A DNA stretch of 64,000 bases from Candidatus Sungiibacteriota bacterium (GCA_016181585.1 JACOYX010000017.1:8317-72316), one strand, 5' to 3'. Counted from the stretch's first letter, positions 12,751 through 43,557 are shown. Numbers and translations: made by a program. The notes: generated by a model from the letters alone, not told the origin.

Positions 12751-13860
12751 TCAAATCAGCAAACCTTCAACGATAGGGTCGTACTTTTTAAATGGCTTTG
12801 AGAGTTTTTTTCCTATCACATATTCATATCGCTCCGAAGGCATCCCTCCAGCAAATTTCTGAGGGCGCATGGCATAGATCATATCCGCCGTCAAAATAAC
12901 GCCGGCCGCAATATCTTGTCCTGCCATAAGCGATTTTCGAAAATAAGGACGAAATATCGCCTCTCCATCTTGAAGAACCTTCCCTTCTTTTCCCATGCCT
13001 TTCTGGACAATTTCTTTAGCGAGATATTCTTCTTTTTTTGCGGGATTATTTTCAATATCGCGAATACCTTTGGTAAGAGTCTTGAATTCCTCCGGCGTCA
13101 TGGATACTTTGTGGTCTGCGCCCCATAAATCCCGTGCAAACGAAAAGTGCTTTTCAATCACTCGCGCTCCCAGCGCCACTGCGGCAAGCGCGGAATCAAT
13201 ACCGATCGAATGATCAGAAAATCCGGTTGGCACATGATAACGATCGGCTAAATACTTAATTGATTTTAAATAAAGCTCATCCGGCGGACAGGGGTATTTT
13301 GATACGCAATGCAATAATATTATTTCCGAGTTTCTTCGTTTCAGAAAGTCAATTGCGCTATCAATCTCTTCTTCCGTCGACATACCGGAGGAAATAATAA
13401 TAGGTTTTTTGGTGGAAGCCAGATAATCAAGCATTACAAAATCCAAGAGATCACCGGAACCAACTTTCCATAATTCAACACCAAGTTGCGAAAGTTTTTG
13501 CGCCGCGCCGCGTGACATTGGTGTAGAAAAAAACGTAATGCCAATTTCATCGCAGTACGTTTTTAATGGCCGCCAAAATTCTTCAGGTGGCGTCGCCGCA
13601 GTATTTCGAGAAACCCAAGAATAGCGGTCGGAACCCCTGAAGTGAGGCGAGACAACGTTGATATTCAACTGCTCGTCCTCCACATTGTGCGTCTGAAATT
13701 TCACCGCATCCGCTCCAGCATCTTTTGCAGCTCTAACTAATTTTTTCGCATTTTCCAGATATTCAAAAACCGGACACTCTTCTTCGGTTTGTATAAAATT
13801 CTTGCCCATTTCGGCAATGATGAAAACTTTATTGTTTAGTTGTTGAGGAAAAGAAAGCAT
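12751..13860 (-). CDS. NeuB-family nonulosonic acid synthase (N-acetylneuraminate/legionaminate/pseudaminate synthase-like) with C-terminal SAF domain
   Basis: 369 aa; NeuB TIM-barrel motifs (FIIAEMGKNF, ..KFQTH.., GFSDHS.G); C-terminal SAF-like region. Confidence 0.8.
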   Translation of the reverse strand: MLSFPQQLNNKVFIIAEMGKNFIQTEEECPVFEYLENAKKLVRAAKDAGADAVKFQTHNVEDEQLNINVVSPHFRGSDRYSWVSRNTAATPPEEFWRPLKTYCDEIGITFFSTPMSRGAAQKLSQLGVELWKVGSGDLLDFVMLDYLASTKKPIIISSGMSTEEEIDSAIDFLKRRNSEIILLHCVSKYPCPPDELYLKSIKYLADRYHVPTGFSDHSIGIDSALAAVALGARVIEKHFSFARDLWGADHKVSMTPEEFKTLTKGIRDIENNPAKKEEYLAKEIVQKGMGKEGKVLQDGEAIFRPYFRKSLMAGQDIAAGVILTADMIYAMRPQKFAGGMPSERYEYVIGKKLSKPFKKYDPIVEGLLI

Positions 13861-13968
13861 GGGTTTAGCGACTGATGTTATTAAAACGCATCAAAACCAT
13901 AACACGTTTCAGAGAAAAATAAAAACCCCGCATGATATATGCTGGGGCTCTTTCAGATTATATGCAAA

Positions 13969-14523
13969 TTATACCTTCGGCTCAATACATTTTGCTTCCA
14001 AAATAAGCTCGCACACTTCACGCACCGCGTGACTGCCTCCCCGTGCTTCAGTGACATAGTCAGCAATCGCTTTCAATTTTTTGTGTCCGTCGGCGACAGT
14101 CACTTTCACCCCAGCAAATTGCATGGGCTCAATATCATTCACATCATCACCCATGTAAAGAATCTCTTCCGGGCTTACGTTATTTTCCGCCGCAATCCGT
14201 TTCAGGATTTTCAACTTCCCCTCACCATTTTCCACTCCCTGCCAACACTGCACTTTTATTTTTTCGCAACGCTTCGCCACAACAGGATTCGCTTCTTTCG
14301 AAATGACACCAACCACAATCCCTGCTTGTTTTTGCAGCATGCCAACACCGAGAGAATCACGCCGCGAACAACGCACCATTTCATGTCCTGTATCATCTAC
14401 ATAAACCATGCCATCGGTCATAATCCCATCAAAATCAAACGCAACGAGCCGGACAGGAACAAGTTTTCTTAACACATTTTCCCTCATTTGTCTTTGATAA
14501 TTAATCACACCACCTAGTGACAT
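13969..14523 (-). CDS. KdsC-family HAD phosphatase (sugar-acid 8- or 9-phosphate phosphatase)
   Basis: VAFDFDGIMTDG HAD motif I; GDDVNDIEPM motif; 184 aa. Confidence 0.7.
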   Translation of the reverse strand: MSLGGVINYQRQMRENVLRKLVPVRLVAFDFDGIMTDGMVYVDDTGHEMVRCSRRDSLGVGMLQKQAGIVVGVISKEANPVVAKRCEKIKVQCWQGVENGEGKLKILKRIAAENNVSPEEILYMGDDVNDIEPMQFAGVKVTVADGHKKLKAIADYVTEARGGSHAVREVCELILEAKCIEPKV

Positions 14524-14544: not shown

Positions 14545-14979
14545 TTATCCAATCCTTATCTCCTCCACCGTTGTCGTGGGAAGCCCTCCATCTATCTTTT
14601 CGCCGTAATGCTCTTCCATACGCACGCGATCATTGAACACAGGATTTGATACTTCGAAAATAACGCAATCAGTAATTGCCGTTTCGCGATGCACAGCTCC
14701 GGTCGGAATGAGCACGGTTTGTCCCGGTTTGACCGTCACCTTTGTAATCTTGCCGTCTCCCTCATCATATTCCAAAAGCATTTCGCCGGAAACAAGATGC
14801 CCCGCTTCATTTTTAACTTGATGCTTCTGCAGGCCACCCCTTGTCCCCGCTTTCATTTTTAAAATTTTGCCCGTGGCGACACCTTTGATATGCGCCACCA
14901 AAATTTCCTCTCCCCATACCCGCTCCCGCACTTCGGGTGTAAAAAATTCTATGGTTGCTTTTTTTTCTTGATTCCCCAT
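14545..14979 (-). CDS. Cupin-domain protein
   Basis: 144 aa; beta-barrel cupin signature (G.TVLIPTGAVH). Confidence 0.55.
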   Translation of the reverse strand: MGNQEKKATIEFFTPEVRERVWGEEILVAHIKGVATGKILKMKAGTRGGLQKHQVKNEAGHLVSGEMLLEYDEGDGKITKVTVKPGQTVLIPTGAVHRETAITDCVIFEVSNPVFNDRVRMEEHYGEKIDGGLPTTTVEEIRIG

Positions 14980-15085: not shown

Positions 15086-15511
15086 CTACACCTTAGGCAC
15101 CTTAATCACAAAAAACCGCGCCGTACCTTCCGCGCGATGCGTGTGCGGCACTCCCGCCGGAATCCAAAGACAATCACCTTTTTTTATCACTTGCTCATCT
15201 CCCCCCGCAATTTCCTTGGCAAAAATTTCCGTTTTATCTTCCGTGCCGTCGGTATTCTTTTTAAACCATGGACTCACCATTTCTCCGCCAATGGTAAATA
15301 CGGCCTCCCCCTCAATACACTGCCATAAATCAGCTTTTTCCGTATGCACTTCCGCATCATTTACTATATCAGTATCTTCAAGCATGGCCAAAGGCACATC
15401 GTTTAATTTTGTGAATGAACGCAGAGGCTCGAGCGAATGCTTACCTTGCACAGGAGATTTTTTTTTCGTCTCTTCCACAATCGAGTGAGGTATGTATATG
15501 TAAGTATGCAT
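15086..15511 (-). CDS. Cupin-domain protein
   Basis: 141 aa; LWIPAGVPHTHRAEG cupin motif. Confidence 0.55.
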   Translation of the reverse strand: MHTYIYIPHSIVEETKKKSPVQGKHSLEPLRSFTKLNDVPLAMLEDTDIVNDAEVHTEKADLWQCIEGEAVFTIGGEMVSPWFKKNTDGTEDKTEIFAKEIAGGDEQVIKKGDCLWIPAGVPHTHRAEGTARFFVIKVPKV

Positions 15512-15582: not shown

Positions 15583-16299
15583 TTATCTATTGTGGCGGAG
15601 TAGCGCTTTTTCCGCCTCTTCCCAATCTTCCATGCTATCAATATTCACGCTATATTTTTGCTCCATTGGATACGCCCGCACATCATCACCATAAAAAGTT
15701 GGTTCCGAACGAAATAAAAGTTCGGTCTTAAAAAGATATATGGCGCCGTTTCGCGTATATGTTTTTCCGAGCTCCTGCCTTCGCTTCACGATTTGCGAAA
15801 ACGGCTCGCCCGTAAAAATTTGCAAATGATTTTCCGCGTCAATTAAAAACTGCCAATGCGGATTAAAATGTTGGGGAATTTCCGAGACGCTCACGATCGA
15901 ATCTGCATTAATTTTTTCCATAAGCTCCGCCGACTCGCGAATATGAAAATCCTGCCGCAGGGGACATGTGGGCTGTAAAATCATCACATAATCCGATACA
16001 AAATTTTCATTGTCGCGAAGCCAGTTTACCGCGTGTTGTAGTACCGGTAAGTGCGGCGTGGTATCTTGCGCAAGTTCCGCCGGACGCATGAAAGGCACTT
16101 CGGCGCCGCACTGCTTTGCAACATTGGCAATTTCTCTATCATCCGTTGAAAGAATCAAGCGTGAAATAACGCCGGATTCTTTGGCGGCTTTGATGGTATA
16201 AGCAATGAGGGGTTTTCCCGCAAGCTCTTTTACGTTTTTCCGCGGAATACCTTTTGACCCTCCGCGAGCAGTGATGATACCGAGAATAGTTTTTGGCAT
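15583..16299 (-). CDS. Acylneuraminate cytidylyltransferase family (CMP-nonulosonic acid synthetase, NeuA/KdsB-type)
   Basis: ILGIITARGGSKGIPRKN signature; 238 aa. Confidence 0.8.
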   Translation of the reverse strand: MPKTILGIITARGGSKGIPRKNVKELAGKPLIAYTIKAAKESGVISRLILSTDDREIANVAKQCGAEVPFMRPAELAQDTTPHLPVLQHAVNWLRDNENFVSDYVMILQPTCPLRQDFHIRESAELMEKINADSIVSVSEIPQHFNPHWQFLIDAENHLQIFTGEPFSQIVKRRQELGKTYTRNGAIYLFKTELLFRSEPTFYGDDVRAYPMEQKYSVNIDSMEDWEEAEKALLRHNR

Positions 16300-16383: not shown

Positions 16384-17313
16384 TTATAAAGAAAGCAGAA
16401 TTGTTCCCAGAAAAAGTACTGCTGATCCGATGATTCTTTGCCGAAAATATCCCTCACCAAGAAACAAAAATGCAAGGAGAACTGTCCATAAAATTTGTGT
16501 CCGTTTCAGCGCTCCCACATAGGGCGCAATTCCATAATAATATCCCGCATTGTACATACACGCCGCAACACCAAACATCATACCAACCATAAATACCCGC
16601 CAAAACATTTCTTTGGAAAGTTTTTGCCACACGCCTCGTCTCATTGATTCAAAAAATACCACACACGCAACGATAGTAAAAACCGAGCCGGTAAAAAACA
16701 TAGGGTCAGAGCGGAGTACGCCGAGTTTATCAAAACTGATGCTTATGGCGCCAAGATACGCTACCAAAAGCGCCAATCTTGCGCCCTTACTTGCAAACAA
16801 GCGAAACCACGGCCCTCCCCAATATGCCAAAAAGTTTTGCCATCGCACCGGGCACACACTGGCCATTGTCTTGGGTAAAGCAACCGGTTTTCCGCCAAGA
16901 TAAAGCGTATATGCGCCAATACCTATTAACACAATCCCAACTCTTCCCCATGCCGTAGGCCACTCGCCAAGAATTACATACGACATCAGTATCGCAAACA
17001 TCGGCATTGCGGAAGATAACGGGACAACGATAGACGCATCTTCAAGCTTGAGTGATTTGATATTGAGATATTGGATAAACACATTGAGAAATGCGGTAAT
17101 GGCAAAGGGAATCCAAAATCCCTGTTGTACGTTTGGCGTGCCGTAAAAAATCAAACTTCCTGAAAACCCCGCGCATGCTGCGCCCAACATGGTCACCACC
17201 GTTACAAAATCTTCATGCACCGCCTGCGTCAGCAATTTCTTTTTAATAATATTGGAAATAGCATGAAGCAATGCTCCGCCCATCACAAACCCATAAATCG
17301 GTAACCCCATCAT
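16384..17313 (-). CDS. EamA/DMT-superfamily membrane transporter
   Basis: 309 aa; 10 predicted TM helices; duplicated EamA-like halves. Confidence 0.55.
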   Translation of the reverse strand: MMGLPIYGFVMGGALLHAISNIIKKKLLTQAVHEDFVTVVTMLGAACAGFSGSLIFYGTPNVQQGFWIPFAITAFLNVFIQYLNIKSLKLEDASIVVPLSSAMPMFAILMSYVILGEWPTAWGRVGIVLIGIGAYTLYLGGKPVALPKTMASVCPVRWQNFLAYWGGPWFRLFASKGARLALLVAYLGAISISFDKLGVLRSDPMFFTGSVFTIVACVVFFESMRRGVWQKLSKEMFWRVFMVGMMFGVAACMYNAGYYYGIAPYVGALKRTQILWTVLLAFLFLGEGYFRQRIIGSAVLFLGTILLSL

Positions 17314-18485: not shown

Positions 18486-19658
18486 TTATATCTCCTTTGC
18501 TTCAAAAAAATTTTTTTGTATCTGCAAGGTTGCGCGCGCGAGCACTTTTGCAATTTTTTCGCTCGTTTTGGCTTGGTGATAAAGTATTGCGGGCGGATAG
18601 CGGCCGTGTTCGAGCTGACGCAAAATAGCACCTTTGATTTCTTGTTTCCTGTGGCCAACATCAAGCACGTTTGGCCCGCGAAGGCGGTTTTGCTGGCGCG
18701 TGCCGATATTGACCACCGGCGTACCGAGATACGAACATTCTTTAATGCCAGATGAGGAATTGCCGATTAAGCACTTTGCGCTCCGCAAAAGACCAATAAA
18801 ATCCTCAGGCAAGAGATCAGTCACAAAACGAATGTGATGATTTTCCGATCCCACGCGCTCGCGCCAGACGCGAATCACTTTTGCAATTTCATGCGTGCCT
18901 GCGTCGCTATTCGGCCAAAACCAAGCCGTAGGCATTTTGAGCTCATCAATTACCTTAAAAAGTTCTTCTGCGTTTTCTTGATTATTCTTTTCCGTAGTTA
19001 CGGGATGCTGCATAACCACAAGAAATGGTTTTGCAACATCAATGTGCGCTCCCACACCCGCGGCATTCACCACTTCGCCTTTATTTTTTTTGGAAATGGA
19101 TGCCACAAATTCTATGTCTAGCGAACCCACATTAAATACATATTCCGGATGCTCCCCCATCTGAATTACGCGCCTTCGCGAATCTTCATTGGTAACAAAA
19201 TGAATATGCGAAAGTTTGGTAATCGCGTGGCGCACGCTTTCATCAATCGTACCGGAAAGATCGCCGCCTTCAATGTGCGCGATTGTTTTATTCAAATACG
19301 CCGCCGTCATCGCAAGCGCCAACTGCTCAAAACGATCTCCGCGGATCAAAACAATATCCGATTTAAGGCGATCCAAAGAATTAGAAAATTCAAGCGCCGT
19401 AAGTCCTGCCGTGCGTGCCATTGCCACATGATGCCCGCCTTCTATAACATTATACAACACATCGCTGATTTTAAACCCCGCCTTTTCCATTGCAGGCAAA
19501 AATCGCTCGCCGTATTTATCGATCAGAACTGATCCTCCAGCAACAAGCTGCAAATCAATATCCTTATGATGCAGCATTTTTTCCAGCAATAATTTCTGCC
19601 TCGCGTAATGCACGCGGCTGGTGATCGGAAAACAGATTTTTCTTTTACCTTTTTTCAT
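18486..19658 (-). CDS. UDP-N-acetylglucosamine 2-epimerase, hydrolysing type (NeuC/LegG family)
   Basis: 390 aa; Epimerase_2 motifs (HIEGGDLSGTIDESVRHAITKLSHIHF, QHPVTTE). Confidence 0.8.
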   Translation of the reverse strand: MKKGKRKICFPITSRVHYARQKLLLEKMLHHKDIDLQLVAGGSVLIDKYGERFLPAMEKAGFKISDVLYNVIEGGHHVAMARTAGLTALEFSNSLDRLKSDIVLIRGDRFEQLALAMTAAYLNKTIAHIEGGDLSGTIDESVRHAITKLSHIHFVTNEDSRRRVIQMGEHPEYVFNVGSLDIEFVASISKKNKGEVVNAAGVGAHIDVAKPFLVVMQHPVTTEKNNQENAEELFKVIDELKMPTAWFWPNSDAGTHEIAKVIRVWRERVGSENHHIRFVTDLLPEDFIGLLRSAKCLIGNSSSGIKECSYLGTPVVNIGTRQQNRLRGPNVLDVGHRKQEIKGAILRQLEHGRYPPAILYHQAKTSEKIAKVLARATLQIQKNFFEAKEI

Positions 19659-19927: not shown

Positions 19928-21283
19928 TTACAAATTTTCCAAAATAAAATTACCAATTCTCTCCCCAGATTTTCCATCCACAAACTTACACTGGCTTTCA
20001 ACAAGTTTTCTGCGTCCCGCAGAATCGAGCATGGGATCCGCCAAATACTTCTTCACCCACCCTATCAAATCTTCCTCGCTTCCGGCAAGACGGATACCCC
20101 CGTGATCAAGGGCTTTTTTATAATGCGCCATGGCATAAAATTGTGTGGGTGACTTGCACAAAGCCTCATGCGGCCGAATTTCAAAATTAAGATTTATCAC
20201 CGGCTTGTTAAACACCGAGCCGTCTATACTGATGCTCGAAGCGTAACACACGAGAATCGACATATGGTACAACGTATCGGCAAGGTATTTTAGTTCCGCA
20301 AAATCCATATCCCAATCCACTCCCCTTTTCTCGGAAAATCGCGTTCCTGGGTAAGTATAGAGAAGCTTTGGGCGATTGTTTAAATCTTTCGGATCAATAA
20401 AATCATTGGGAGGGAACCGCACTAAGATTTTTATATTATTCCCAAATTTTCCTTCTTCCGCAAGTCGGTTCAATAAATCCATCATATCCCAATCGGAATT
20501 ACTAAACGCACTGCCAATCGGAGAATAGACAATCAATTTCGTGTCGGCAGGCAAATTCAGTCCCCGAAAATATTCTTCGCGCGTGTTTGGCCTCAAAGAA
20601 AAATATTGGTCATATTGCGGTATGCCGCCGGTAAAAATAATATCAGGATTGATGTTGTTATAGAGCATCAAATCTTCTTTGATAAGATCATTAAAAACCA
20701 CAAGATGGTCCGGCACGATGCGTAAAATACACCTTCCTGAAACCCGATCCCATGTATTGATAAATCCTATTGTCTTCACCTTGTTTTTTTTCGCCTCCCG
20801 CAAAAAATGCACCTCCCGTTCATCAAAAAGATTTGCAAGAAATACAAGATCCGGCCGGTATTTCGCAAAATATTTCGCGTACACGCGATCACGCACAAGG
20901 CGATAATCCAAAAAACGCACTGCGGCGAGAACTACAGGACGCGCCAAAAGCCAATTGATAACATTGCTCCATTGATAGGAAACGTAATTTCCTCGCATAT
21001 CATAATCCATACGACGCCGCAATTTTGTGGTCTCCGTCCGCAAAAGCGTGTATTTAAATTTGCGGAATAACCCGTCGAAACCCATTACTGCAGGGTTTTC
21101 CACCACTTCATAAAAAACCCGCGGATCATTGAATTCTTTTTTAAGATACTCAAGCCGTTTTTTATTTTTCGTAAACAAAACAAGGCGAATATCTTTTCGC
21201 TTCATCAATATTTCAAAAACAGGAGTCCGCAAAATATTTTTCGACTCCACCCCCTCAAAAATTGTTATAAAAATTGTTTTCAT
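19928..21283 (-). CDS. TagF-like (CDP-alcohol glycerophosphotransferase-type GT-B) putative transferase, paralogue 1 of 3
   Basis: 451 aa; shares WDxxxxxG and C-terminal ...F.DG..G.R... segments with 45992-47377 and 51455-52837. Confidence 0.45.
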   Translation of the reverse strand: MKTIFITIFEGVESKNILRTPVFEILMKRKDIRLVLFTKNKKRLEYLKKEFNDPRVFYEVVENPAVMGFDGLFRKFKYTLLRTETTKLRRRMDYDMRGNYVSYQWSNVINWLLARPVVLAAVRFLDYRLVRDRVYAKYFAKYRPDLVFLANLFDEREVHFLREAKKNKVKTIGFINTWDRVSGRCILRIVPDHLVVFNDLIKEDLMLYNNINPDIIFTGGIPQYDQYFSLRPNTREEYFRGLNLPADTKLIVYSPIGSAFSNSDWDMMDLLNRLAEEGKFGNNIKILVRFPPNDFIDPKDLNNRPKLLYTYPGTRFSEKRGVDWDMDFAELKYLADTLYHMSILVCYASSISIDGSVFNKPVINLNFEIRPHEALCKSPTQFYAMAHYKKALDHGGIRLAGSEEDLIGWVKKYLADPMLDSAGRRKLVESQCKFVDGKSGERIGNFILENL

Positions 21284-22354: not shown

Positions 22355-22448
22355 ACTGTAGGCCATTATTCACCAAACCCTGTTTTACCTACTTGACTAT
22401 TACTTAGCTTAGTTATACTTTATTCTTAAGATCTTTCTTGGAGAAGAT

Positions 22449-22676
22449 ATGAACAGAAAATATGGTGCACTGCCTCCTCCTGAAGCAGCTTGGCAAATTG
22501 GCAAAACAGCTAAATTTATCACGCGAATTAATGAAATTAGCAGACGGTTGGAAGAATATCATAAGCATCTCAATGACCCTTATACTTTCTACCCGGACGA
22601 AGTTGATGCTGTTCGTGAATTAAAAACACACGCAGCTGAAGATATCGAATTTTTGCTTGGTGAAATTAGAAAGTAA
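22449..22676 (+). CDS. Small hypothetical protein (75 aa)
   Basis: Upstream TTGACT...TATACT promoter-like boxes and GGAGAAG RBS. Confidence 0.45.
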   Translation: MNRKYGALPPPEAAWQIGKTAKFITRINEISRRLEEYHKHLNDPYTFYPDEVDAVRELKTHAAEDIEFLLGEIRK

Positions 22677-23235: not shown

Positions 23236-23271
23236 TTTTTCAGAACCTGATAACACAGGAGGTACCCTCGC

Positions 23272-23511: not shown

Positions 23512-23520
23512 CCAGTCATC

Positions 23521-23556: not shown

Positions 23557-23583
23557 TATTATCTCCCATGACACTTTTGCTCT

Positions 23584-23982
23584 TTATTGACTAGCCCGCA
23601 GGGATTTACTCACAAAATCTTTTAAATACGGCGTTGTCTCTAACTCCATAAATTCGTCTTTTGTAACCCATCGGAATTCGGTGTGCTCGTTGTTTAACTT
23701 TACATCACCGTTTACCGCCTTGCATCTGTAGCCGATAAATAGCACATAATTATCTTCATCCTTGTTGTAAGCGGTTTCCACAACCAGCGGAATAATATTG
23801 TCTATATCTATTCCAGCTTCTTCTTTTACTTCTCGTCTTAGTGCGGTTTCGTGTTCTTCTGGTATTTCAACTGCTCCGCCCGGTAAATCCCATCGCAATC
23901 CTTTATATGATGCTTTCAACACAAGAAACTTACCCTCTCTATTTGACACAATTGCTTTCTGGTGAAAATTGATTTTAGCCAT
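23584..23982 (-). CDS. NUDIX hydrolase
   Basis: Nudix box GGAVEIPEEHETALRREVKEEAGI; start moved to the second ATG (MAKINF...), which has GGAAAGTGAGGA upstream. Confidence 0.75.
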   Translation of the reverse strand: MAKINFHQKAIVSNREGKFLVLKASYKGLRWDLPGGAVEIPEEHETALRREVKEEAGIDIDNIIPLVVETAYNKDEDNYVLFIGYRCKAVNGDVKLNNEHTEFRWVTKDEFMELETTPYLKDFVSKSLRASQ

Positions 23983-24012
23983 ATTTTTTATCCTCACTTT
24001 CCATGACACCTC

Positions 24013-24687
24013 TTATATTTCTTTCCACTTCCTCACTTCCTCATTTGCCTTTTTATATCTCTCCTCGGTTCCCGCATCGATCCAATATCCTTTATGCAAA
24101 AAAACATTCAGTTCGCCGCTCTCGGCAAGCCGCGGAAAAATCTCTTTTTCGATCATAAATTCTTCCGGTGTGTTTTCAAACACAGTCGGCGACAAAAGAT
24201 AAAATCCGCAATTCACATACCCCGTAATTTTTTCCTGCGGTTTTTCGAGAAACTCTTTTATCTTGCCATTATCAATGTTTAAAAGCCCAAAATCCCGCGC
24301 ATCGCTCACCTCCACACACATGATAGTATTGGGCAAAGAGCGCATCATCGCGGAAATATCCACATCAGTTAAACCATCTCCATTGAGCACCAAAAATGGT
24401 TCTTTCAAATCACGACTCGCGAATTTAATTCCCCCGCCCGTACCCAAAGGCCTCGGTTCCACCACATACTCAAATTTTCCCGGCCACTTCGCCTCACAAA
24501 ATGCGATAACCTGATCTGCCTTATGATACAAACTCAAGCGAATGTCGAAGATGCCATGCTTTTGCAATAAATTTACTTGATGCTCCAAAATCGTAACTCC
24601 ACCGACTTCAGCAAGCGGCTTTGGCCTCTCTCCCGTAATTTTTGCAAGCCGGGTGCCGAAACCACCGGCTAAAATAATTGCTTTCAT
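24013..24687 (-). CDS. Sugar-phosphate nucleotidyltransferase (NTP_transferase family)
   Basis: MKAIILAGGFGTRL signature; 224 aa; the start codon lies inside the left 22-bp TIR of the MITE-like element. Confidence 0.75.
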   Translation of the reverse strand: MKAIILAGGFGTRLAKITGERPKPLAEVGGVTILEHQVNLLQKHGIFDIRLSLYHKADQVIAFCEAKWPGKFEYVVEPRPLGTGGGIKFASRDLKEPFLVLNGDGLTDVDISAMMRSLPNTIMCVEVSDARDFGLLNIDNGKIKEFLEKPQEKITGYVNCGFYLLSPTVFENTPEEFMIEKEIFPRLAESGELNVFLHKGYWIDAGTEERYKKANEEVRKWKEI

Positions 24688-25142
24688 CCCACACATAACT
24701 TACACAAGACTATATTGAAGACACTCTTTAAGTCTCCGTAAACCCTGCGCATTTAATTGGTCTGTTGCCGAATAGCACTTTGACTACAATTGCATAAATT
24801 CGGTCAAATTTTTCAAAAAATTTCTTGGCTTATCTTCCAGATAGGCCGCAAAATTTTTTGAAAAATTTGCCTCGAATTTCTGCAACTTCGCGACGTAGGC
24901 TATTCGGCAACAGACCCTTAATTTTAAAGATTGTTCTCTCTTATAAGCATCATCTTTTTACACATAAGCTTCATAGTACACAAGTCGCCATGGCAAATAC
25001 TTTTTTGTGTACGACGACTTGCCACTGTTATGCTGATATAGTCTTCTACGAAGATCACCTGTACCCTACGTACAAACCATCAACAGTTTCAGATTTGAGC
25101 AAATACACATAATACATGTTTGTGTAAGTTATGTGTGGGATG
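24685..25142. mobile_element. MITE-like element: 458 bp bounded by 22-bp perfect terminal inverted repeats (catcccacacataacttacaca / tgtgtaagttatgtgtgggatg); non-coding interior built from mosaic repeat modules
   Basis: TIRs at 24685-24706 and 25121-25142. Interior carries module D (ggtctgttgccgaatagc ... gctattcggcaacagacc) and module C (cttggcttatcttccagataggccgcaaaa), both shared with 40596-40775, 42021-42477 and 57660-57893. The TIRs supply the start codon of 24013-24687 and the last 5 codons plus stop of 25129-25857. Confidence 0.6.
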
Positions 25143-25857
25143 AATTACTTTTTCTCAATAACAACTCCGCAATCTCAAAATCAATCGCGTGATCAATATC
25201 CACCGTCGGCCTTTTAAGAAAATACGGCAAAACCTTACCACCAATGACTGAATTTTTCTCCATAATTGTACTATAACGCACCACACCGATATCTGCAGTG
25301 GTCTGATACACTTTGGGCAATGACTGACGAGGTGCGGTATGCCAATCTTTCATGCCAGGCATATCTGAAACAAAGGGGTCAATAAAATCTCCCGCTATCT
25401 TCCACATTTTAAAGGGTGGCTTCGATGGCTCTTCTATCGAACGCACACTATCGGCTTCCGGAAATTTTTCCAAAAGCTCAATGGACTCATCAATCTCCTC
25501 CGCGGTACGCAAAGGCCCGGTCGGCCGCAAATGCACTAGAATATCCGGCTGATATTTTTCATGATCCTTCAGCCACTCCAGTGCGTGTAAAAAAACCGGC
25601 GTATCCGGCGTCAAATCTTCAGCTAAATTTGCGGGACGCAAAAAAGGCACCTCGACGCCATATTTTCTTGCGATGTCGGCAATCTCTTCATTGTCGGTAG
25701 ACACAATCACGCGATCAATATATTTTGATTTTTTTGCCACACCAATGCTCCACGCAAGCAACGGTTTACCCGCAAGTAATTGTATGTTTTTTTTCGGTAT
25801 CCCCTTTGATCCCCCCCTCGCAGGGATGAGAGCTAATATCTTTTTTCTATTTATCAT
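25129..25857 (-). CDS. Acylneuraminate cytidylyltransferase family (second CMP-nonulosonic acid synthetase)
   Basis: ILALIPARGGSKGIPKKN signature; start moved to MINRKK; last 5 codons lie in the TIR. Confidence 0.75.
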   Translation of the reverse strand: MINRKKILALIPARGGSKGIPKKNIQLLAGKPLLAWSIGVAKKSKYIDRVIVSTDNEEIADIARKYGVEVPFLRPANLAEDLTPDTPVFLHALEWLKDHEKYQPDILVHLRPTGPLRTAEEIDESIELLEKFPEADSVRSIEEPSKPPFKMWKIAGDFIDPFVSDMPGMKDWHTAPRQSLPKVYQTTADIGVVRYSTIMEKNSVIGGKVLPYFLKRPTVDIDHAIDFEIAELLLRKSNSSHT

Positions 25858-25886
25858 AAATAGTTTTGAGTGATACAATACTTACC

Positions 25887-40778: not shown

Positions 40779-42020
40779 CTACTTTGGTATGACCCTTTCC
40801 CCTCCCACTGGCATGATAAATTTGCCGCCTTTGGCGATAAAATCCTTTTCCTTTTGTAAAATGATATCCTTGTACGGCCACGCGAGCAAAAAATAATAAT
40901 CAGGAGGATTTTGCCGCGCCCATGAGATATCTACAATAGGAATATGCGTGCCCGGAGTAAATTTGCCGATTTTTGAAGGAAGCGTTTCAGTCGCAAAATC
41001 AAGCACCGACCTGCCGATACCAAAATAATTCAGGAGAGTATTTCCGCGCGCCGGAGCGCCATAGGCCGCAATGCGTTTCCCTTCCCGCTTCAGCCGAAGC
41101 AGTGTCCCTTTTATGTCCTCCCGCAGAGCCTCAACGCTTTTTGCCAATTTTTGATACGAAGAAAAGTTATCAAAACCGCGCATCCTCTCAAGCGCGGAAT
41201 ACCGCCCGACACTTTCTTCGATAGCATACGTGCCCGGACGCGCCGCATAGTAGCGAAGCGAATTCCCTTGCACAGGGAAAGGCTTTACGTCAAAAAGTTC
41301 AAGTCCATACTGCGTCAAAAGCTTATTTAGCGGTTTCACCGCCAAGTAAGACATATGCTCATGATAAACAGAATCAAACGCCAACTGGTCAAACATATCC
41401 CCGAGATAGGGCGCCTCGAACACAAAAACACCTTGTGGAGAAAGAAGCGACACAACACCTTTCATAAGATCATGATGATCATCTATATGTGCCACGACAT
41501 TATTGCCGATAATTACATCGGCCTGTCCGAATTCGTCTGCAATTTTCTGTGCCGTCGCTTCACCGAAAAATTCCGCACGCGTCATAACTCCGCGCTCGTT
41601 TGCCATCGCCGCAACATTTTCCGCAGGATCAACCCCCAGTACCTGCACGCCGTATTGTTTGATTAAATAAAGCAAATGCCCGTCGTTTGATCCGATTTCT
41701 ATAACAAATTTTCCCGTATCAGGCAAAAACCGCGCCCGCATTTCCTCCGCATAGCCCGTGAAATGCAAAGAGCTGGGAATACCGGAAGAAAGATATACAT
41801 AGTCATGCACAAAGAGAAGCCGCGGATCAACCACATGGCTTAATTGCACCAGATTGCAGTTTTCACAAAACACGAGACCTAAAGGAAAACGTTTTTCCGA
41901 CGCAAACGATGCAGTATCGCGAAGCAGTGAATTTGCCAGTGGCTGATCCCCCAAATCAAAAAAATGTCTGAGACTTTCCGACTCGCACATTCTACATTTT
42001 ATTTGTTGATAAACATCCAC
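40779..42020 (-). CDS. SAM-dependent sugar C-methyltransferase (TcaB9/TylC3-like) with N-terminal Zn-ribbon
   Basis: CRMCES...CENC zinc ribbon; methyltransferase domain (VIEIGSNDGHLL); C-methyltransferase C-terminal domain; 413 aa. Confidence 0.7.
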   Translation of the reverse strand: MDVYQQIKCRMCESESLRHFFDLGDQPLANSLLRDTASFASEKRFPLGLVFCENCNLVQLSHVVDPRLLFVHDYVYLSSGIPSSLHFTGYAEEMRARFLPDTGKFVIEIGSNDGHLLYLIKQYGVQVLGVDPAENVAAMANERGVMTRAEFFGEATAQKIADEFGQADVIIGNNVVAHIDDHHDLMKGVVSLLSPQGVFVFEAPYLGDMFDQLAFDSVYHEHMSYLAVKPLNKLLTQYGLELFDVKPFPVQGNSLRYYAARPGTYAIEESVGRYSALERMRGFDNFSSYQKLAKSVEALREDIKGTLLRLKREGKRIAAYGAPARGNTLLNYFGIGRSVLDFATETLPSKIGKFTPGTHIPIVDISWARQNPPDYYFLLAWPYKDIILQKEKDFIAKGGKFIMPVGGERVIPK

Positions 42021-42477
42021 GTTGATAATTTAAAAGATATCTTTACGTATAGGTCTATTTAATGGGTTTGTTGCCGAATATCGCTTATGAGCTACGATTG
42101 CATAAATTCGGGTAAATCGCATCGCGATTTACGGGAAATTTAGCGAAGCCGGGTATTCCCGTGCGAAGCGTAAAATTTCCCCGGCTTTTGCTCAAGGAAG
42201 CAAAAGAATTTTTCAAAAAAATTCTTGGCTTATCTCAGCATATAGGCCTTAAACGGTCGATCAGTCCCAGACCGTTCGTACCGAACGGCATGGACCAAGT
42301 CAGGTTTTAGACCGCGTAGTTTGTGTGAGTATTTGCCTCGTCCAGACATGTCGGGATCGCTTCAAAGGCTATTCGGCAACAGTCCCTTAAAGCAGATTGA
42401 GCCTTTTTATACTAAAAAGAATTCAAAATAAAGGCAAATAGAAAAACCCTTCTGAAAGGGTTTTTCTCCAGAAACAG
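42021..42477. repeat. 457-bp non-coding spacer built from repeat modules A-like, D, C and E
   Basis: tctttacgtataggtct; gttgccgaata...ctattcggcaacag; cttggcttatctcagcatataggcc; ggccttaaacggtcgatcagtcccagaccgttcgtaccgaacgg...caggttttagacc (reverse complement of 57700-57790). Confidence 0.6.
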
Positions 42478-43557
42478 TTAACCCCACATAACGTCATCGT
42501 GCTTAATCACCGTATCGAGCGGAATATCTACTTTAGTTTTTTTGCCGATTACTTTTTCAATCATGTTAGGCTTCAAACCGTATCCAGGGCTTTTGCAGGT
42601 AAGCATGGATGCGCTGATTACTGTGCCCGCCGGAATTGCGGCGGCGGAAACTATACTTTTTGAATGCTTCTCCCGCGTCTTCTTTTCTTCTTCAGTAAAT
42701 TTCTTTACCGGCTCGCCAAATGCTTTTTCAATTCTGCGTGTATCCCTCACCATTGAGTTGAATGTCTCCGGTTCGATGCTTACCGTCGCATGATCCGGCC
42801 CAGGAAGAGAACGATCAAGCGTGAAGTGGCGCTCCACCGAAACCGCACCCAGTGTCACCGCCGCAAGCGTCGGCAAGGTATCCTGCTCATGACCGGAATA
42901 GCCGATCGGGAGCGGAGCATAGCGTTCCTTCAAAAGCGGGATTGTTTTTAAATTTATTTTTTCATCCGGAGAAGGATACACCGAAACACAATGCTTGATA
43001 ATCAACTGATCATTGTGTTTTAAAATAGCGTCTACCGCTTCATCAAGCTCTTCGATCGTGCACATACCCGTGGAAAGGAACATCGGTTTTCCTTTTTTTG
43101 CCACATATTCAAGCAGAGGAATATTGGTTACGTCAAAAGACGCAACTTTGTATACCGGAACATTTATTTCCTCCAAAAAATCAGTGCTTTTTTTATCAAA
43201 GGGAGTTGCAAAAAATATGACTCCGAGAGAATCTGACAACGCTTTGAGTTTGGCAAATTCCTCCTGATTGAGCTCAAGCGCTTGGCGGTATTCGCCGTAT
43301 GTTTTCCCGAAAATCTGGTCTTTATTTTGCGGCTTATCCACGAGCTCCTTGGCAAAGGTTTCGTTAATGAACCGCTTCTGCAATTTCACCGCATCCGCAC
43401 CGGCTTTCACCGCTTCCTCGATAGAACGCTTTGCAAGGTAATAATCGCCGTTATGGTTATTGCCGATTTCCGCGATAAAAAACACGGACTCTCCTTCTCC
43501 CACATATTTATTGCCAACCTTGACACGATTCGGGAGATTCTTTTTTGCTAAAGTCAT
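42478..43557 (-). CDS. NeuB-family nonulosonic acid synthase with C-terminal SAF domain, third paralogue
   Basis: FFIAEIGNNHNGD, KLQK and GYSGHE motifs; 359 aa. Confidence 0.8.
   Translation of the reverse strand: MTLAKKNLPNRVKVGNKYVGEGESVFFIAEIGNNHNGDYYLAKRSIEEAVKAGADAVKLQKRFINETFAKELVDKPQNKDQIFGKTYGEYRQALELNQEEFAKLKALSDSLGVIFFATPFDKKSTDFLEEINVPVYKVASFDVTNIPLLEYVAKKGKPMFLSTGMCTIEELDEAVDAILKHNDQLIIKHCVSVYPSPDEKINLKTIPLLKERYAPLPIGYSGHEQDTLPTLAAVTLGAVSVERHFTLDRSLPGPDHATVSIEPETFNSMVRDTRRIEKAFGEPVKKFTEEEKKTREKHSKSIVSAAAIPAGTVISASMLTCKSPGYGLKPNMIEKVIGKKTKVDIPLDTVIKHDDVMWG

What the first reader, a model, noticed from the sequence alone, without database searches (positions are those of the whole stretch)
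12751..43557. Three NeuB-family synthases and two CMP-sugar synthetases in one locus; multiple nonulosonic or ulosonic acid pathways
NeuB homologues lie at 12751-13860, 25887-26876 and 42478-43557. NeuA-family cytidylyltransferases lie at 15583-16299 and 25129-25857. A NeuC-type hydrolysing 2-epimerase and a KdsC-like phosphatase are also present. This implies the organism makes at least two different CMP-activated 9-carbon or 8-carbon keto-sugar acids. The sialic, legionaminic, pseudaminic or Kdo-like classes cannot be told apart from motifs alone. NeuB-2 lacks an obvious SAF domain and is the most diverged. A KdsC-type phosphatase next to NeuB-1 hints at a phosphorylated-sugar route (sugar-6-P + PEP) as in eukaryotic Neu5Ac-9-P/KDN-9-P synthesis. 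That route is unusual in bacteria.
Basis: partly seen in the sequence, partly recalled or inferred. Interest (0 to 1): 0.55.

Follow-up and report, generated by a model that had tools for sequence, protein, structure and literature searches.

The report
Three sialic-acid-type sugar pathways in CPR bacterium
A tiny-genome groundwater bacterium (Candidatus Sungbacteria) has a surface-sugar locus spanning the whole 64 kb window. It encodes three anciently diverged sialic-acid-type synthases: one ordinary bacterial type, one resembling the eukaryote-like phosphate-dependent type, and one of an uncharacterised type.

Summary
The window holds exactly three NeuB-family synthases, two CMP-sugar synthetases, one NeuC-type hydrolysing 2-epimerase and one KdsC-type phosphatase. 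The contig belongs to a Candidatus Sungbacteria (CPR/Patescibacteria) MAG.

The three NeuBs share only 27-34% identity. Each has its own large orthologue group across Parcubacteria and its own conserved gene neighbourhood, so they are not recent duplicates.

- **NeuB-1** is always found with NeuC and NeuA-1. It shows the free-sugar signature, including the Arg314 equivalent. This is the ordinary bacterial route, probably to CMP-Neu5Ac.
- **NeuB-3**, not the adjacent NeuB-1, carries the signature of phosphosugar-using Kdn-9-P/NANS-type synthases. It groups with them at 92.5% bootstrap. It is therefore the likelier partner of the KdsC-type phosphatase.
- **NeuB-2** is a separate clade without a SAF domain. 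It is conserved next to NeuA-2, a previously unrecognised GT-B protein and a CBS-fused NDP-sugar dehydrogenase. Its product is unknown.

No aminotransferase is present in the window, so legionaminic and pseudaminic routes are not supported locally. A Kdo route is also unsupported.

The phosphorylated route is also already known in bacteria.

The parts
12751..13860 (-). NeuB-1: NeuB + SAF synthase of the free-sugar (NeuC-linked) type
   Evidence: Pfam NeuB and weak SAF. Scores 262 bits against TIGR03569, below the 400-bit cut-off. 100% identical to an NCBI Ca. Sungbacteria MAG protein on an 84,095-bp contig. Orthologues always lie next to NeuC and NeuA. It keeps the Arg314 equivalent and the motifs KFQTH and FSDH. 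The barrel-only HMM test favours the free-sugar profile by 65 bits.
13969..14523 (-). KdsC/YrbI-type C0 HAD phosphatase, proposed nonulosonate-9-phosphate phosphatase
   Evidence: Passes TIGR01670. Scores 122 bits against the KdsC equivalog (cut-off 208) and 102 bits against the Kdn-9-P phosphatase equivalog (cut-off 180). PDB matches: KdsC about 90 bits, BT1713 74 bits. 31% identical to BT1713. Close relatives are rare, the best being 49%.
14545..14979 (-). cupinA: small cupin forming a pair with the phosphatase; possible sugar-phosphate isomerase (inferred)
   Evidence: Pfam Cupin_2. A homologue lies directly upstream of a NANS-like NeuB in Saccharibacteria locus L008. PDB gives only weak hits, including cupin-type glucose-6-P isomerase at E=0.05. 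A terminator-like hairpin at 15076-15046 lies upstream.
15086..15511 (-). cupinB: cupin conserved in the NeuB-1 module
   Evidence: Pfam Cupin_2. Homologues at 53% and 43% identity lie beside NeuA-1/EamA in L002 and L003.
15583..16299 (-). NeuA-1: CMP-nonulosonate synthetase paired with NeuB-1
   Evidence: Pfam CTP_transf_3. Scores 187 bits against PseF, below the 206-bit cut-off. Clusters with the NeuAs adjacent to NeuB-1 orthologues.
16384..17313 (-). EamA/DMT transporter conserved in the NeuB-1 module
   Evidence: Pfam EamA x2 and weak TPT. Also present in L002, L003, L022 and L023.
18486..19658 (-). NeuC: UDP-hydrolysing UDP-GlcNAc 2-epimerase
   Evidence: TIGR03568 equivalog, 349 bits against a cut-off of 236; the non-hydrolysing wecB model scores only 38 bits. 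Adjacent to NeuB-1 orthologues in L002, L022, L023 and L024.
19928..21283 (-). TagB/TagF-like GT-B protein (Glyphos_2), candidate nonulosonate transferase
   Evidence: Pfam Glyphos_transf. NCBIfam BFO_1060 family GT, 36 bits, below cut-off. Precedent for TagB-like nonulosonate transferases in PMC5420450.
9983..12260 (.). Two further TagB-like GT-B genes: unk330 (9983-10975, minus strand) and Glyphos_1 (11145-12260, plus strand)
   Evidence: Glyphos_1 hits Pfam Glyphos_transf and BFO_1060 at 48 bits. unk330 matches Glyphos_1 by hhalign at 97% probability. Both carry an HP motif.
23584..24696 (-). HddC-like sugar-1-P nucleotidyltransferase (24013-24696) and NUDIX hydrolase (23584-24009), downstream of NeuA-2
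   Evidence: Pfam NTP_transferase and NUDIX. NCBIfam HddC 106 bits and Man-1-P guanylyltransferase 130 bits, both below cut-off.
25129..25878 (-). NeuA-2: CMP-sugar synthetase paired with NeuB-2
   Evidence: Pfam CTP_transf_3. PseF 153 bits, below cut-off. Clusters with the NeuAs next to NeuB-2 orthologues.
25887..26876 (-). NeuB-2: NeuB-family synthase without SAF, from an uncharacterised clade
   Evidence: Pfam NeuB only. Clade bootstrap 100%. Catalytic residues conserved. AF2 model pLDDT 93.7; best Foldseek matches are NeuB structures at TM 0.66. C-terminus is not SAF. C-terminal motif NRDYYRGRF is invariant.
27443..28648 (-). unk401: GT-B nucleotide-sugar enzyme (MurG/PseG/GT1-like), conserved with NeuB-2
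   Evidence: No Pfam, NCBIfam or PDB hit for the protein itself. Homologues lie beside NeuB-2 in L001, L107 and L108. Only 221 cluster representatives in 1.84 billion. Distant members pass Pfam Glyco_tran_28_C, and one member is fused to a CBS-NDP-sugar dehydrogenase. The family profile hits the GT1 nucleotide-sugar box at E=3e-5.
28765..30513 (-). CBS-fused NDP-sugar 6-dehydrogenase
   Evidence: Pfam CBS plus the three UDPG_MGDP_dh domains. TIGR03026 367 bits, passing. Closest equivalog is UDP-ManNAc dehydrogenase at 243 bits, below cut-off. Conserved next to the NeuB-2 module in L107 and L108.
40779..42020 (-). Sugar C-methyltransferase (TylC3-like), conserved just downstream of NeuB-3
   Evidence: Pfam Methyltransf_13/14. 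Same position in L109 and L110, and nearby in L026.
42478..43557 (-). NeuB-3: NeuB + SAF synthase with the Kdn-9-P/NANS-type (phosphosugar) signature
   Evidence: Pfam NeuB and SAF. Best window match to the characterised P. parvum Kdn-9-P synthetase: 34% identity, 125 bits. Superclade with Kdn-9-P synthases at 92.5% bootstrap. Shares 13 of 19 signature columns, including KLQKR, TYGE..LE, YSGH and Lys at Nm288; the Arg314 equivalent is Ser. Barrel HMM test favours the Kdn profile by 37 bits.
43690..44862 (-). Enolase-superfamily acid-sugar dehydratase-like gene, a window-specific insert upstream of NeuB-3
   Evidence: Pfam MR_MLE_N/C. Galactonate and mannonate dehydratase models well below cut-off. 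Absent at this position in L109, L110, L025 and L026.
45992..47377 (-). TagB-like GT-B protein (Glyphos_3), conserved upstream of NeuB-3
   Evidence: Pfam Glyphos_transf and BFO_1060 at 45 bits. Same position in L110 and L109.
51455..52837 (-). Fifth TagB/BFO_1060-like GT-B protein (unk460)
   Evidence: NCBIfam BFO_1060 48 bits and TIGR04396 36 bits, below cut-off. hhalign 99.9% to Glyphos_2.
3095..9909 (.). Conserved assembly core: Bac_transf priming transferase (3095-4477, plus), epimerase/dehydratase (5417-6331, minus), short UDP-sugar dehydrogenase (6490-7413, minus), Wzy_C + TPR ligase-like protein (7654-9909, minus)
   Evidence: Pfam. The same block flanks the NeuB-1 module in L002, L005, L022 and L023, and Wzy_C/TPR and MurB occur in Saccharibacteria L008 and L011.

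Best explanation
The window is part of a very large cell-surface glycan locus of a Candidatus Sungbacteria (Parcubacteria, CPR) bacterium. It encodes three separate PEP-condensing NeuB-family modules. These most likely make three different 2-keto-3-deoxy acid sugars.

Module A (inferred): NeuC hydrolyses and epimerises UDP-GlcNAc to free ManNAc. NeuB-1 condenses it with PEP. NeuA-1 makes the CMP-sugar. This is the ordinary bacterial non-phosphorylated route, most likely to Neu5Ac or a close derivative.

Module B (inferred): NeuB-3 is a Kdn-9-P/Neu5Ac-9-P-synthase-like enzyme. It condenses PEP with a sugar 6-phosphate, with Man-6-P giving Kdn-9-P as the simplest case. The KdsC-type HAD at 13969-14523 removes the 9-phosphate. 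cupinA may supply the sugar phosphate. One of the two NeuAs activates the product, because NeuB-3 has no NeuA of its own here.

Module C (inferred): NeuB-2 has no SAF domain and has its own active-site variations. It works with NeuA-2. It is conserved next to a GT-B nucleotide-sugar enzyme (unk401) and a CBS-NDP-sugar dehydrogenase. Its product is an as yet uncharacterised CMP-activated ulosonic acid.

Downstream steps (inferred): five TagB/BFO_1060-like GT-B proteins are the candidate transferases. The glycan is built on a lipid carrier started by Bac_transf and handed on by the Wzy_C/TPR protein.

Shown directly: domain content; conservation of catalytic residues; paralogue divergence; orthologue groups; conserved neighbourhoods; signature sharing with a biochemically characterised Kdn-9-P synthetase. 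Substrates, products and the phosphatase-NeuB-3 pairing are inferred.
For: Identity and origin:
- NeuB-1, NeuB-2 and NeuB-3 are 100% identical to proteins of one 84,095-bp Ca. Sungbacteria MAG contig.

Divergence:
- Pairwise identity is 27-34%.
- Each clade has 100% bootstrap support.

Catalytic competence:
- The equivalents of E25, K53, Q55, K129, S132, S154, Y186, S213, H215, E234, H236 and D247 are kept in all three.
- The E134D change is common in environmental, archaeal and eukaryotic synthases (PMC8208679).

Module A:
- NeuC passes its equivalog model.
- NeuB-1, NeuC and NeuA-1 are neighbours in L002, L003, L005, L022, L023 and L024.
- In L024 the three genes lie side by side with no other sialic-acid-type pathway gene directly adjacent.
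- NeuB-1 has the free-sugar signature and keeps the Arg314 equivalent.

Module B:
- The characterised P. parvum Kdn-9-P synthetase (PMC6200933 supplement) matches NeuB-3 best.
- It nests among short NeuBs that sit beside KdsC-HADs.
- NeuB-3, other Patescibacteria NeuBs and this clade group together at 92.5% bootstrap.
- NeuB-3 shares 13 of 19 discriminating columns. These include the K-R pair after Q55 and the loop region that PMC8208679 ties to phosphosugar use in human NanS.
- The barrel HMM test gives +37 bits for the Kdn-type profile.
- A cupinA homologue lies directly upstream of a NANS-like NeuB in L008.

Module C:
- NeuB-2, unk401 and NeuA-2 are neighbours in 4 loci, and the CBS-dehydrogenase in 3 of those 4.
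- A natural unk401-CBS-dehydrogenase fusion exists.
- unk401 is GT-B.
- The NeuB-2 model is confident and NeuB-like, but has a different C-terminus.

Transferases.
Against: - No biochemistry exists for any of these proteins.
- All NeuBs and NeuAs score below the curated equivalog cut-offs.
- The phosphatase lies 108 bp from NeuB-1 and 28 kb from NeuB-3, and may be co-transcribed with NeuB-1.
- NeuB-3 branches outside the core Kdn-9-P synthase clade. That clade itself has only 64.5% support, and the trees are neighbour-joining only.
- NeuB-3 orthologue neighbourhoods in L025, L109 and L110 have no KdsC-type HAD. L026 has a different HAD type next to it.
- NeuB-1 grouping with NmNeuB has only 21% support.
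- The NeuC family model probably also covers LegG-type enzymes (my recollection, not tested). NeuB-1 could therefore be LegI-like if the precursor genes lie outside the window; 20 kb of the contig and the rest of the genome were not seen.
- The role of unk401 is undecided between hydrolase and transferase.
- No LegI, human NANS or BT1714 sequence was available for the trees.
Confidence: 0.62

Rival explanations
1. The KdsC-type phosphatase serves the adjacent NeuB-1, which would use ManNAc-6-P or Man-6-P as in the eukaryotic route.
For: The genes are 108 bp apart on the same strand. A terminator-like hairpin upstream of cupinA suggests a cupinA-HAD-NeuB-1 transcription unit. L023 has an APH-type kinase and a KdsC-like HAD just upstream of its NeuB-1 orthologue.
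Against: NeuB-1 orthologues in L002, L003, L005, L022 and L024 have NeuC and NeuA but no such HAD. NeuC yields unphosphorylated ManNAc, and the window has no APH-type kinase homologue; its only Pfam-detected sugar kinase is a distant HddA-like GHMP kinase at 55572-56573. NeuB-1 has the free-sugar state at essentially all 19 discriminating columns and keeps the Arg314 equivalent. The barrel HMM test gives -65 bits for the Kdn-type profile. The window HAD has few close relatives, so it is not a conserved member of the module.
Confidence: 0.15
2. NeuB-1/NeuC/NeuA-1 make a legionaminic-acid-type sugar. Here NeuC would act as LegG and NeuB-1 as LegI, with the precursor genes elsewhere in the genome.
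For: LegG and LegI are close homologues of NeuC and NeuB (established knowledge). NeuB-1 scores below the NeuB equivalog cut-off and is about equally distant from NmNeuB, PseI and SpsE at 32-35%. L024 has a DegT aminotransferase 8 kb from the NeuB-1/NeuA/NeuC trio.
Against: The 64-kb window contains no DegT aminotransferase and no homologue of the PseH-type GNAT acetyltransferase.
Confidence: 0.15
3. The three NeuBs are redundant copies of one specificity, or one or more is a decaying paralogue.
For: None beyond shared family membership.
Against: Identity is 27-34%. Each has hundreds of 65-94% identical orthologues in other Parcubacteria. Catalytic residues are intact in all three. Neighbourhoods are distinct and conserved.
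Confidence: 0.03
4. The KdsC-like phosphatase and a NeuA-like enzyme serve a Kdo (8-carbon) pathway.
For: The HAD scores slightly higher against KdsC models than against the Kdn-9-P phosphatase model (122 against 102 bits; about 90 against 74 bits in PDB). The NeuAs hit KdsB models weakly.
Against: No KdsA/DAHP-synthase-type Pfam hit among the ORFs scanned. KdsB models score only 30-50 bits against cut-offs of 155-281. CPR bacteria are not known to make LPS (general knowledge, not tested here).
Confidence: 0.03

Closest known systems
Campylobacter jejuni multi-neuB arrangement (NeuB1 for Neu5Ac, LegI, PseI); from established knowledge, not tested here
   Same: One organism carries three diverged NeuB paralogues, each tied to its own CMP-synthetase or pathway for surface glycans.
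   Different: Here the three types are NeuC-linked, Kdn-9-P/NANS-like, and an uncharacterised clade without SAF, rather than Neu/Leg/Pse. All three lie in one locus, with only two NeuAs. No aminotransferase-based pathway is present in the window. The host is a CPR bacterium.
Bacteroides thetaiotaomicron / Prymnesium parvum CMP-Kdn pathway (Kdn-9-P synthase BT1714, phosphatase BT1713, CMP-Kdn synthetase; PMC6200933)
   Same: NeuB-3 shares the K-x-Q-K-R, TYG..LE, SGH and DHA.S.EP motifs with the characterised Kdn-9-P synthetase, and groups with that clade at 92.5%. A KdsC-family C0 HAD 31% identical to BT1713 is present.
   Different: NeuB-3 has a SAF domain, whereas the characterised Kdn-9-P synthetase and most of the HAD-linked bacterial relatives found here lack one. 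It branches outside the core clade. The phosphatase is 28 kb away beside another NeuB. The window has no NeuA of the CMP-Kdn synthetase clade. The HAD is below the Kdn-9-P phosphatase equivalog cut-off.
Eukaryotic Neu5Ac-9-P synthase NANS with its AFP/SAF domain, and the KdsC-like C-terminal domain of CMAS
   Same: NeuB-3 has the same two-domain layout and an Asp at the E134 position. PMC8208679 links phosphosugar use to the alpha2-beta2 loop region, which is where NeuB-3 carries the Kdn-type signature. From memory only, the NeuB-3 motifs resemble human NANS (FQKS, GKTYGE, GYSGHE).
   Different: No NANS sequence was available, so membership was not tested. The phosphatase here is KdsC-type, not the eukaryotic NANP type.
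Neisseria meningitidis / E. coli K1 NeuC-NeuB-NeuA route to CMP-Neu5Ac
   Same: Module A has the same three enzymes. NeuC passes its equivalog model. NeuB-1 keeps the metal and PEP ligands and the Arg314 equivalent.
   Different: NeuB-1 is only 32% identical to NmNeuB and below the equivalog cut-off. The module also has a conserved EamA transporter and a cupin of unknown role.
Tannerella forsythia general O-glycosylation with terminal Pse/Leg added by TagB-like transferases (PMC5420450)
   Same: TagB/GT-B-like candidate transferases hit the BFO_1060 family model. A uronic-acid-forming dehydrogenase is present. A Wzy_C-domain protein could act as ligase or oligosaccharyltransferase.
   Different: The hits are far below cut-off (36-48 against 200 bits). 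The acceptor and the carrier are unknown.

Membership tests
NeuB / nonulosonic acid synthase family (PF03102) | NeuB TIM-barrel domain above the Pfam gathering score | tested here: met
   247, 146 and 264 bits against a cut-off of 22 for NeuB-1, NeuB-2 and NeuB-3. The NeuB-2 model matches NeuB structures at TM 0.66.
NeuB / nonulosonic acid synthase family (PF03102) | Metal-binding His pair and the catalytic and PEP-binding residues (NmNeuB E25, K53, K129, H215, E234, H236, D247) | tested here: met
   All are conserved in the three proteins. E134 is Asp in all three.
NeuB / nonulosonic acid synthase family (PF03102) | C-terminal SAF domain contributing the Arg314 equivalent | tested here: inconclusive
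   NeuB-1 has SAF and the Arg (AMRPQ). NeuB-3 has SAF, but Ser replaces the Arg (CKSPG). NeuB-2 has no SAF.
N-acetylneuraminate synthase equivalog (TIGR03569) / pseudaminic acid synthase equivalog (TIGR03586) | Score at or above the curated cut-off | tested here: not met
   TIGR03569: 262, 138 and 319 bits against 399.65. TIGR03586: 228, 114 and 262 bits against 340.25.
Kdn-9-P / Neu5Ac-9-P (phosphosugar) synthase type | Sequence signature shared with a biochemically characterised Kdn-9-P synthetase | tested here: met
   NeuB-3 shares 13 of 19 discriminating columns and gains 37 bits in the barrel HMM test. NeuB-1 and NeuB-2 do not.
Kdn-9-P / Neu5Ac-9-P (phosphosugar) synthase type | Phylogenetic placement inside the clade of the characterised enzyme | tested here: inconclusive
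   NeuB-3 is in a 92.5% superclade with that clade but outside the core clade, which has 64.5% support. Neighbour-joining trees only.
Kdn-9-P / Neu5Ac-9-P (phosphosugar) synthase type | Genomic adjacency to a KdsC-type phosphatase | tested here: not met
   The only such HAD is 28 kb from NeuB-3, beside NeuB-1. NeuB-3 orthologue loci lack it.
Kdn-9-P / Neu5Ac-9-P (phosphosugar) synthase type | Activity on Man-6-P or ManNAc-6-P | not testable with these tools
   Needs an enzyme assay.
NeuC UDP-hydrolysing 2-epimerase (TIGR03568) | Score at or above the curated equivalog cut-off | tested here: met
   349.3 bits against 235.9. The wecB model scores 37.9 bits.
CMP-nonulosonate synthetase (CTP_transf_3; PseF equivalog TIGR03584) | Pfam domain present; equivalog cut-off reached | tested here: inconclusive
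   The Pfam domain is met (85 and 82 bits). The PseF equivalog is not met (187 and 153 bits against 205.7).
KdsC/YrbI HAD-IIIA phosphatases | Subfamily model TIGR01670 and the DxD and GDxxND catalytic motifs | tested here: met
   110.7 bits against 106.95. Motifs seen in the sequence.
KdsC (Kdo-8-P) or Kdn-9-P phosphatase equivalogs | Score at or above the curated equivalog cut-off | tested here: not met
   KdsC 121.8 against 208. Kdn-9-P phosphatase 101.9 against 180.
Legionaminic / pseudaminic acid pathways | Sugar 4,6-dehydratase, DegT-type aminotransferase and N-acetyltransferase in the locus | tested here: not met
   No DegT or acetyltransferase Pfam hit in any scanned ORF. tblastn with three DegT sequences and a PseH from related loci finds nothing at E below 0.4. 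Only the 64-kb window was tested.
Kdo pathway | KdsA (DAHP_synth_1 family) and KdsB | tested here: not met
   No such Pfam family among the ORFs scanned. KdsB models score far below cut-off.
BFO_1060 family (T. forsythia-type nonulosonate transferase, NF046086) | Score at or above the curated cut-off | tested here: not met
   36-48 bits against 200 for four window proteins. They are related but not members.

The most novel reading that the evidence does not exclude
The NeuB-2 module makes a CMP-activated ulosonic acid of a class not yet described. The module comprises the SAF-less NeuB-2, NeuA-2, the unk401 GT-B enzyme and a CBS-NDP-sugar 6-dehydrogenase, with an HddC-like nucleotidyltransferase and a NUDIX hydrolase nearby. 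One possibility is that unk401 acts like PseG, releasing an oxidised or otherwise modified sugar from its nucleotide. NeuB-2 would then condense that sugar with PEP. The substrate might be a uronic acid, giving a dicarboxylic 'nonulosaric' acid, or a heptose, giving a 10-carbon acid. The invariant Arg-rich C-terminal motif (NRDYYRGRF) would bind the extra anionic group in place of the SAF arginine. Together with the NANS-like NeuB-3, this would mean Parcubacteria carry a modular repertoire of at least four NeuB classes on their surface glycans.
Probability: 0.3. Interest if true: 0.8.

Novelty: new variant of a known kind. Interest (0 to 1): 0.55.

Why it matters
CPR/Patescibacteria have genomes of roughly 1 Mb; a related genome gave a 1.03-Mb contig. 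They are thought to live attached to host cells. This organism spends at least 64 kb on one surface-glycan locus with three sialic-acid-type synthases.

A full-text search found no paper linking Patescibacteria and nonulosonic acids. A large synthase phylogeny does not mention them.

If the assignments hold, three things follow:
- These bacteria display several acidic nine-carbon sugars. That bears on how they attach to hosts and on phage recognition.
- A NANS-like, SAF-bearing, probably phosphosugar-dependent synthase is common in CPR. That is relevant to how the eukaryote-type route originated.
- The NeuB-2/unk401 pair is a defined, testable candidate for a new ulosonic acid pathway.

Module A on its own, and the mere presence of several neuB genes, are ordinary.

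Tried and rejected
- **Exact-sequence look-up of NeuB-1:** found no contig.
- **Genome-collection scan with NeuB-1:** returned only 3 close orthologues. The distant hits proved useful as a source of HAD-linked NeuBs.
- **Metagenome scan with the HAD:** showed it has few close relatives, the best at 49%. This gave little context.
- **unk401 searches:** Pfam and NCBIfam at relaxed thresholds, a 4-sequence profile against PDB, and hhalign against the window's GT-B families all gave nothing.
- **unk401 structure:** the single-sequence AlphaFold model failed at pLDDT 34. Only the exhaustive representative search and its distant members revealed the GT-B link and the dehydrogenase fusion.
- **cupinA against PDB:** gave only insignificant hits, so its isomerase role stays a guess.
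- **First bootstrap script:** timed out and was redone with a faster distance routine.
- **Full-length Kdn-versus-free-sugar HMM test:** confounded by the SAF domain, so it was repeated on the barrel only.
- **Literature search for KdsC/Kdn-9-P phosphatase specificity residues:** found nothing usable, so the HAD's substrate could not be assigned from sequence.
- **Rfam and tRNA scans of the window:** empty.
- **Rejected readings:** recent duplication, a Kdo pathway, and a local Leg/Pse pathway.

Full report
**Observation**

The window is almost entirely minus-strand coding, with GC about 0.44.

- Pfam and NCBIfam confirm three NeuB-family proteins: NeuB-1 (12751-13860), NeuB-2 (25887-26876) and NeuB-3 (42478-43557).
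- They confirm two CTP_transf_3 cytidylyltransferases: NeuA-1 (15583-16299) and NeuA-2 (25129-25878).
- The KdsC/YrbI-type HAD is at 13969-14523.
- The epimerase at 18486-19658 passes the NeuC equivalog model.
- tblastn finds no further copies in the window.
- None of the NeuBs or NeuAs reaches a curated equivalog cut-off.

**Origin**

All three NeuBs are 100% identical to NCBI proteins of one 84,095-bp contig of a Candidatus Sungbacteria MAG. Every ORF scanned across the 64 kb points to glycan synthesis. The gene classes are:

- glycosyltransferases
- many methyltransferases
- nucleotide-sugar enzymes
- a carbamoyltransferase
- two E1-type thiamine-dependent enzyme pairs
- a priming Bac_transf
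- a Wzy_C/TPR protein

**Are the three NeuBs duplicates?**

No. They share 27-34% identity. Each has more than a hundred listed orthologues at 63-94% identity in Parcubacteria lineages, including Giovannoni-, Kaiser-, Buchanan-, Niyogi- and Colwell-bacteria and Minisyncoccia. Each forms a 100%-bootstrap clade.

The modules combine differently in other contigs:

| Locus or contig | NeuB classes present |
|---|---|
| L001/L002, L003, and a 66,914-bp contig | NeuB-1 + NeuB-2 |
| 32,460-bp and 26,932-bp contigs | NeuB-2 + NeuB-3 |
| L025 | NeuB-3 + a PseI-type cluster |
| L001 | a fourth NeuB class |
| L022, L023 | a further 350-aa NeuB type that falls in the Kdn/NeuB-3 superclade |

Catalytic and ligand-binding residues known from N. 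meningitidis NeuB are kept in all three.

**Module A (NeuB-1)**

In six related loci the NeuB-1 orthologue lies with NeuC and NeuA-1, usually with an EamA transporter and often a cupin. This block lies beside the conserved Wzy_C/TPR, UDP-sugar dehydrogenase and Bac_transf core. Five of the six loci have no KdsC-type HAD.

NeuB-1 keeps the Arg314 equivalent. PMC8208679 reports this as the one conserved catalytic SAF residue. NeuB-1 also shows the free-sugar state at the discriminating columns. This is the standard bacterial route from UDP-GlcNAc. The product is probably Neu5Ac or a derivative. A legionaminic-type product cannot be excluded, because genes outside the window were not seen.

**Module B (NeuB-3 and the phosphatase)**

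A genome scan seeded with NeuB-1 returned many distant loci. In these, a short SAF-less NeuB sits beside a KdsC-like HAD and a NeuA, in diverse bacteria and archaea.

The supplement of PMC6200933 gave the coding sequence of the biochemically characterised, Man-6-P-specific P. parvum Kdn-9-P synthetase. It nests inside that HAD-linked clade, next to a Flavobacterium NeuA-HAD-NeuB cluster.

Evidence placing NeuB-3 with this type:

- NeuB-3 and other Patescibacteria SAF-bearing NeuBs join this clade at 92.5% bootstrap.
- Nineteen alignment columns separate the Kdn-type clade from free-sugar enzymes. NeuB-3 shares 13, including K-L-Q-K-R, TYGE..LE, YSGH, DHATVSIEP and Lys at Nm288. NeuB-1 shares essentially none.
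- On the barrel alone, NeuB-3 scores 286 bits against the Kdn-type profile and 250 against the free-sugar profile. NeuB-1 scores 201 and 266.
- The NeuB-3 SAF domain has Ser where free-ManNAc enzymes have Arg314.

The cupinA-HAD pair looks like a cassette inserted into module A:

- A terminator-like hairpin lies upstream of it.
- The pair is absent from related NeuB-1 modules.
- A cupinA homologue lies directly upstream of a NANS-like NeuB in a Saccharibacteria locus.

This pairing is an inference. The HAD's substrate could not be assigned from sequence. NeuB-3 has no NeuA of its own here; in relatives, NeuB-3-linked NeuAs are sister to NeuA-2.

The conserved NeuB-3 block runs Glyphos_3, NeuB-3, C-methyltransferase, a 590-aa membrane protein, a 340-aa protein, cupin, GFO oxidoreductase, GT2 and a 2-hydroxyacid dehydrogenase. 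This suggests further modification of the sugar or of its acceptor.

**Module C (NeuB-2)**

NeuB-2 has no SAF domain and has its own motif states: KGQII, a four-residue insertion after the first metal His, and an invariant Arg-rich C-terminal motif. Its AlphaFold model is confident at pLDDT 93.7. It matches NeuB structures best and DAHP/Kdo8P synthases less well.

In four loci it lies with NeuA-2 and a roughly 400-aa protein, unk401. In three of them a CBS-fused NDP-sugar dehydrogenase is also present. One locus (L107) carries a complete GmhA/HddA/GmhB/HddC-like set upstream.

unk401 had no detectable family. An exhaustive search found only 221 cluster representatives. Among them:

- one protein is an unk401-CBS-dehydrogenase fusion;
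- two distant members pass Pfam Glyco_tran_28_C;
- the family profile hits the nucleotide-sugar box of GT1 glycosyltransferases at E=3e-5.

unk401 is thus a GT-B nucleotide-sugar enzyme functionally tied to the dehydrogenase. It could be a PseG-like hydrolase feeding NeuB-2. It could instead be a transferase that lays down a uronic acid acceptor, as in the T. forsythia glycan (PMC5420450). The NeuB-2 product remains unknown.

**What is absent**

The window has no DegT aminotransferase, PseH-type acetyltransferase, APH-type kinase, GmhA or GmhB. The Pfam scans also showed no KdsA-type domain.

**Transfer**

Five TagB/TagF-like GT-B proteins are present: Glyphos_1, Glyphos_2, Glyphos_3, unk330 and unk460. 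Four of them hit the BFO_1060 family model weakly. TagB-like proteins are the Pse/Leg transferases in T. forsythia.

**Comparison and verdict**

Multiple neuB paralogues in one organism are known; C. jejuni is an example from established knowledge. The phosphorylated Kdn route is known in bacteria (PMC6200933). The finding is therefore a new variant of a known kind. Three things are new:

- the host lineage, since no literature link was found;
- the combination of a NeuC-linked synthase, a NANS-like SAF-bearing synthase and an uncharacterised SAF-less synthase in one locus;
- the NeuB-2/unk401/dehydrogenase association.

**Limits**

- No enzymology is available.
- The trees are neighbour-joining only.
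- LegI, NANS and BT1714 sequences were missing from the trees.
- Only 64 of 84 kb of the contig were seen.

Noticed in passing
window 1-64000: The whole window is one glycan-biosynthesis locus. Its core (MurB, GT4, Bac_transf, epimerase, short UDP-sugar dehydrogenase, Wzy_C+TPR) recurs beside NeuB modules in other Parcubacteria. Wzy_C/TPR and MurB also recur in Saccharibacteria. For a genome of about 1 Mb this is a very large investment.
   Followed up: partly
window 56595-58893 and 61907-63745: Two pairs of pyruvate-dehydrogenase-E1-like alpha/beta thiamine-dependent subunits lie inside the glycan locus with no E2 or E3. Nearby are a GHMP kinase, a HAD-IA phosphatase, DJ-1 and a PMI-like cupin. 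In relatives, a fused transketolase-like enzyme, an aldehyde dehydrogenase and an SDR sit right next to the NeuB-3 orthologue (L025, L026). This may indicate a two-carbon branch or acyl modification of a sugar.
   Followed up: no
window 43690-45852: An enolase-superfamily acid-sugar dehydratase-like gene and a 318-aa protein with no detectable family are inserted between Glyphos_3 and NeuB-3. This occurs only in this window and not in L109, L110, L025 or L026.
   Followed up: partly
P0393 (985 aa): A natural fusion of the unk401 GT-B domain with a CBS domain and a complete NDP-sugar dehydrogenase. A second long member, P0471 (790 aa), has an N-terminal 386-residue region with no Pfam hit.
   Followed up: partly
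window 16384-17313; L002, L003 (two copies), L022, L023, L011: An EamA/DMT-family transporter is conserved inside the NeuB-1/NeuA-1 module, and beside a NANS-like NeuB in a Patescibacteria-group locus (L011). The DMT superfamily includes eukaryotic CMP-sialic acid transporters, so a role in moving the CMP-sugar or a lipid-linked sugar is conceivable.
   Followed up: no
window 6490-7413: A 307-aa UDP-glucose/GDP-mannose dehydrogenase homologue lacks the C-terminal UDP-binding domain. It is nonetheless conserved at 62-68% identity next to Wzy_C/TPR in L002, L005, L022 and L023, so it is not a local truncation.
   Followed up: partly
window 22366-23584: A gene-poor stretch of about 1.2 kb. It contains only a low-complexity 108-aa ORF (23014-23340) with no homologues in the fetched loci. 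It has several terminator-like hairpins on the plus strand and no Rfam or tRNA match.
   Followed up: partly
window 12359-12754: A 131-aa coiled-coil protein whose start overlaps the NeuB-1 stop by 4 bases. It has no family assignment.
   Followed up: no
window 47447-49237; L109 5748-7529: A NodU-like carbamoyltransferase is conserved a few genes upstream of NeuB-3. This suggests an O-carbamoylated sugar in the glycan.
   Followed up: no
L023 7401-9037: In a related 1.03-Mb contig, an APH-family kinase and a KdsC-like HAD sit together just upstream of the NeuB-1 orthologue. A second KdsC-like HAD lies 8 kb away near a 350-aa NANS-like NeuB. This is a possible kinase/phosphatase variant of the pathway.
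   Followed up: no
L025 1504-7944: A Buchananbacteria contig carries a canonical-looking pseudaminic acid cluster next to its NeuB-3 orthologue: dehydratase, DegT, CTP_transf_3, DUF218, a NeuB that groups with C. jejuni PseI at 92% bootstrap, and a GNAT. Some Parcubacteria therefore do have an aminotransferase-based route.
   Followed up: partly
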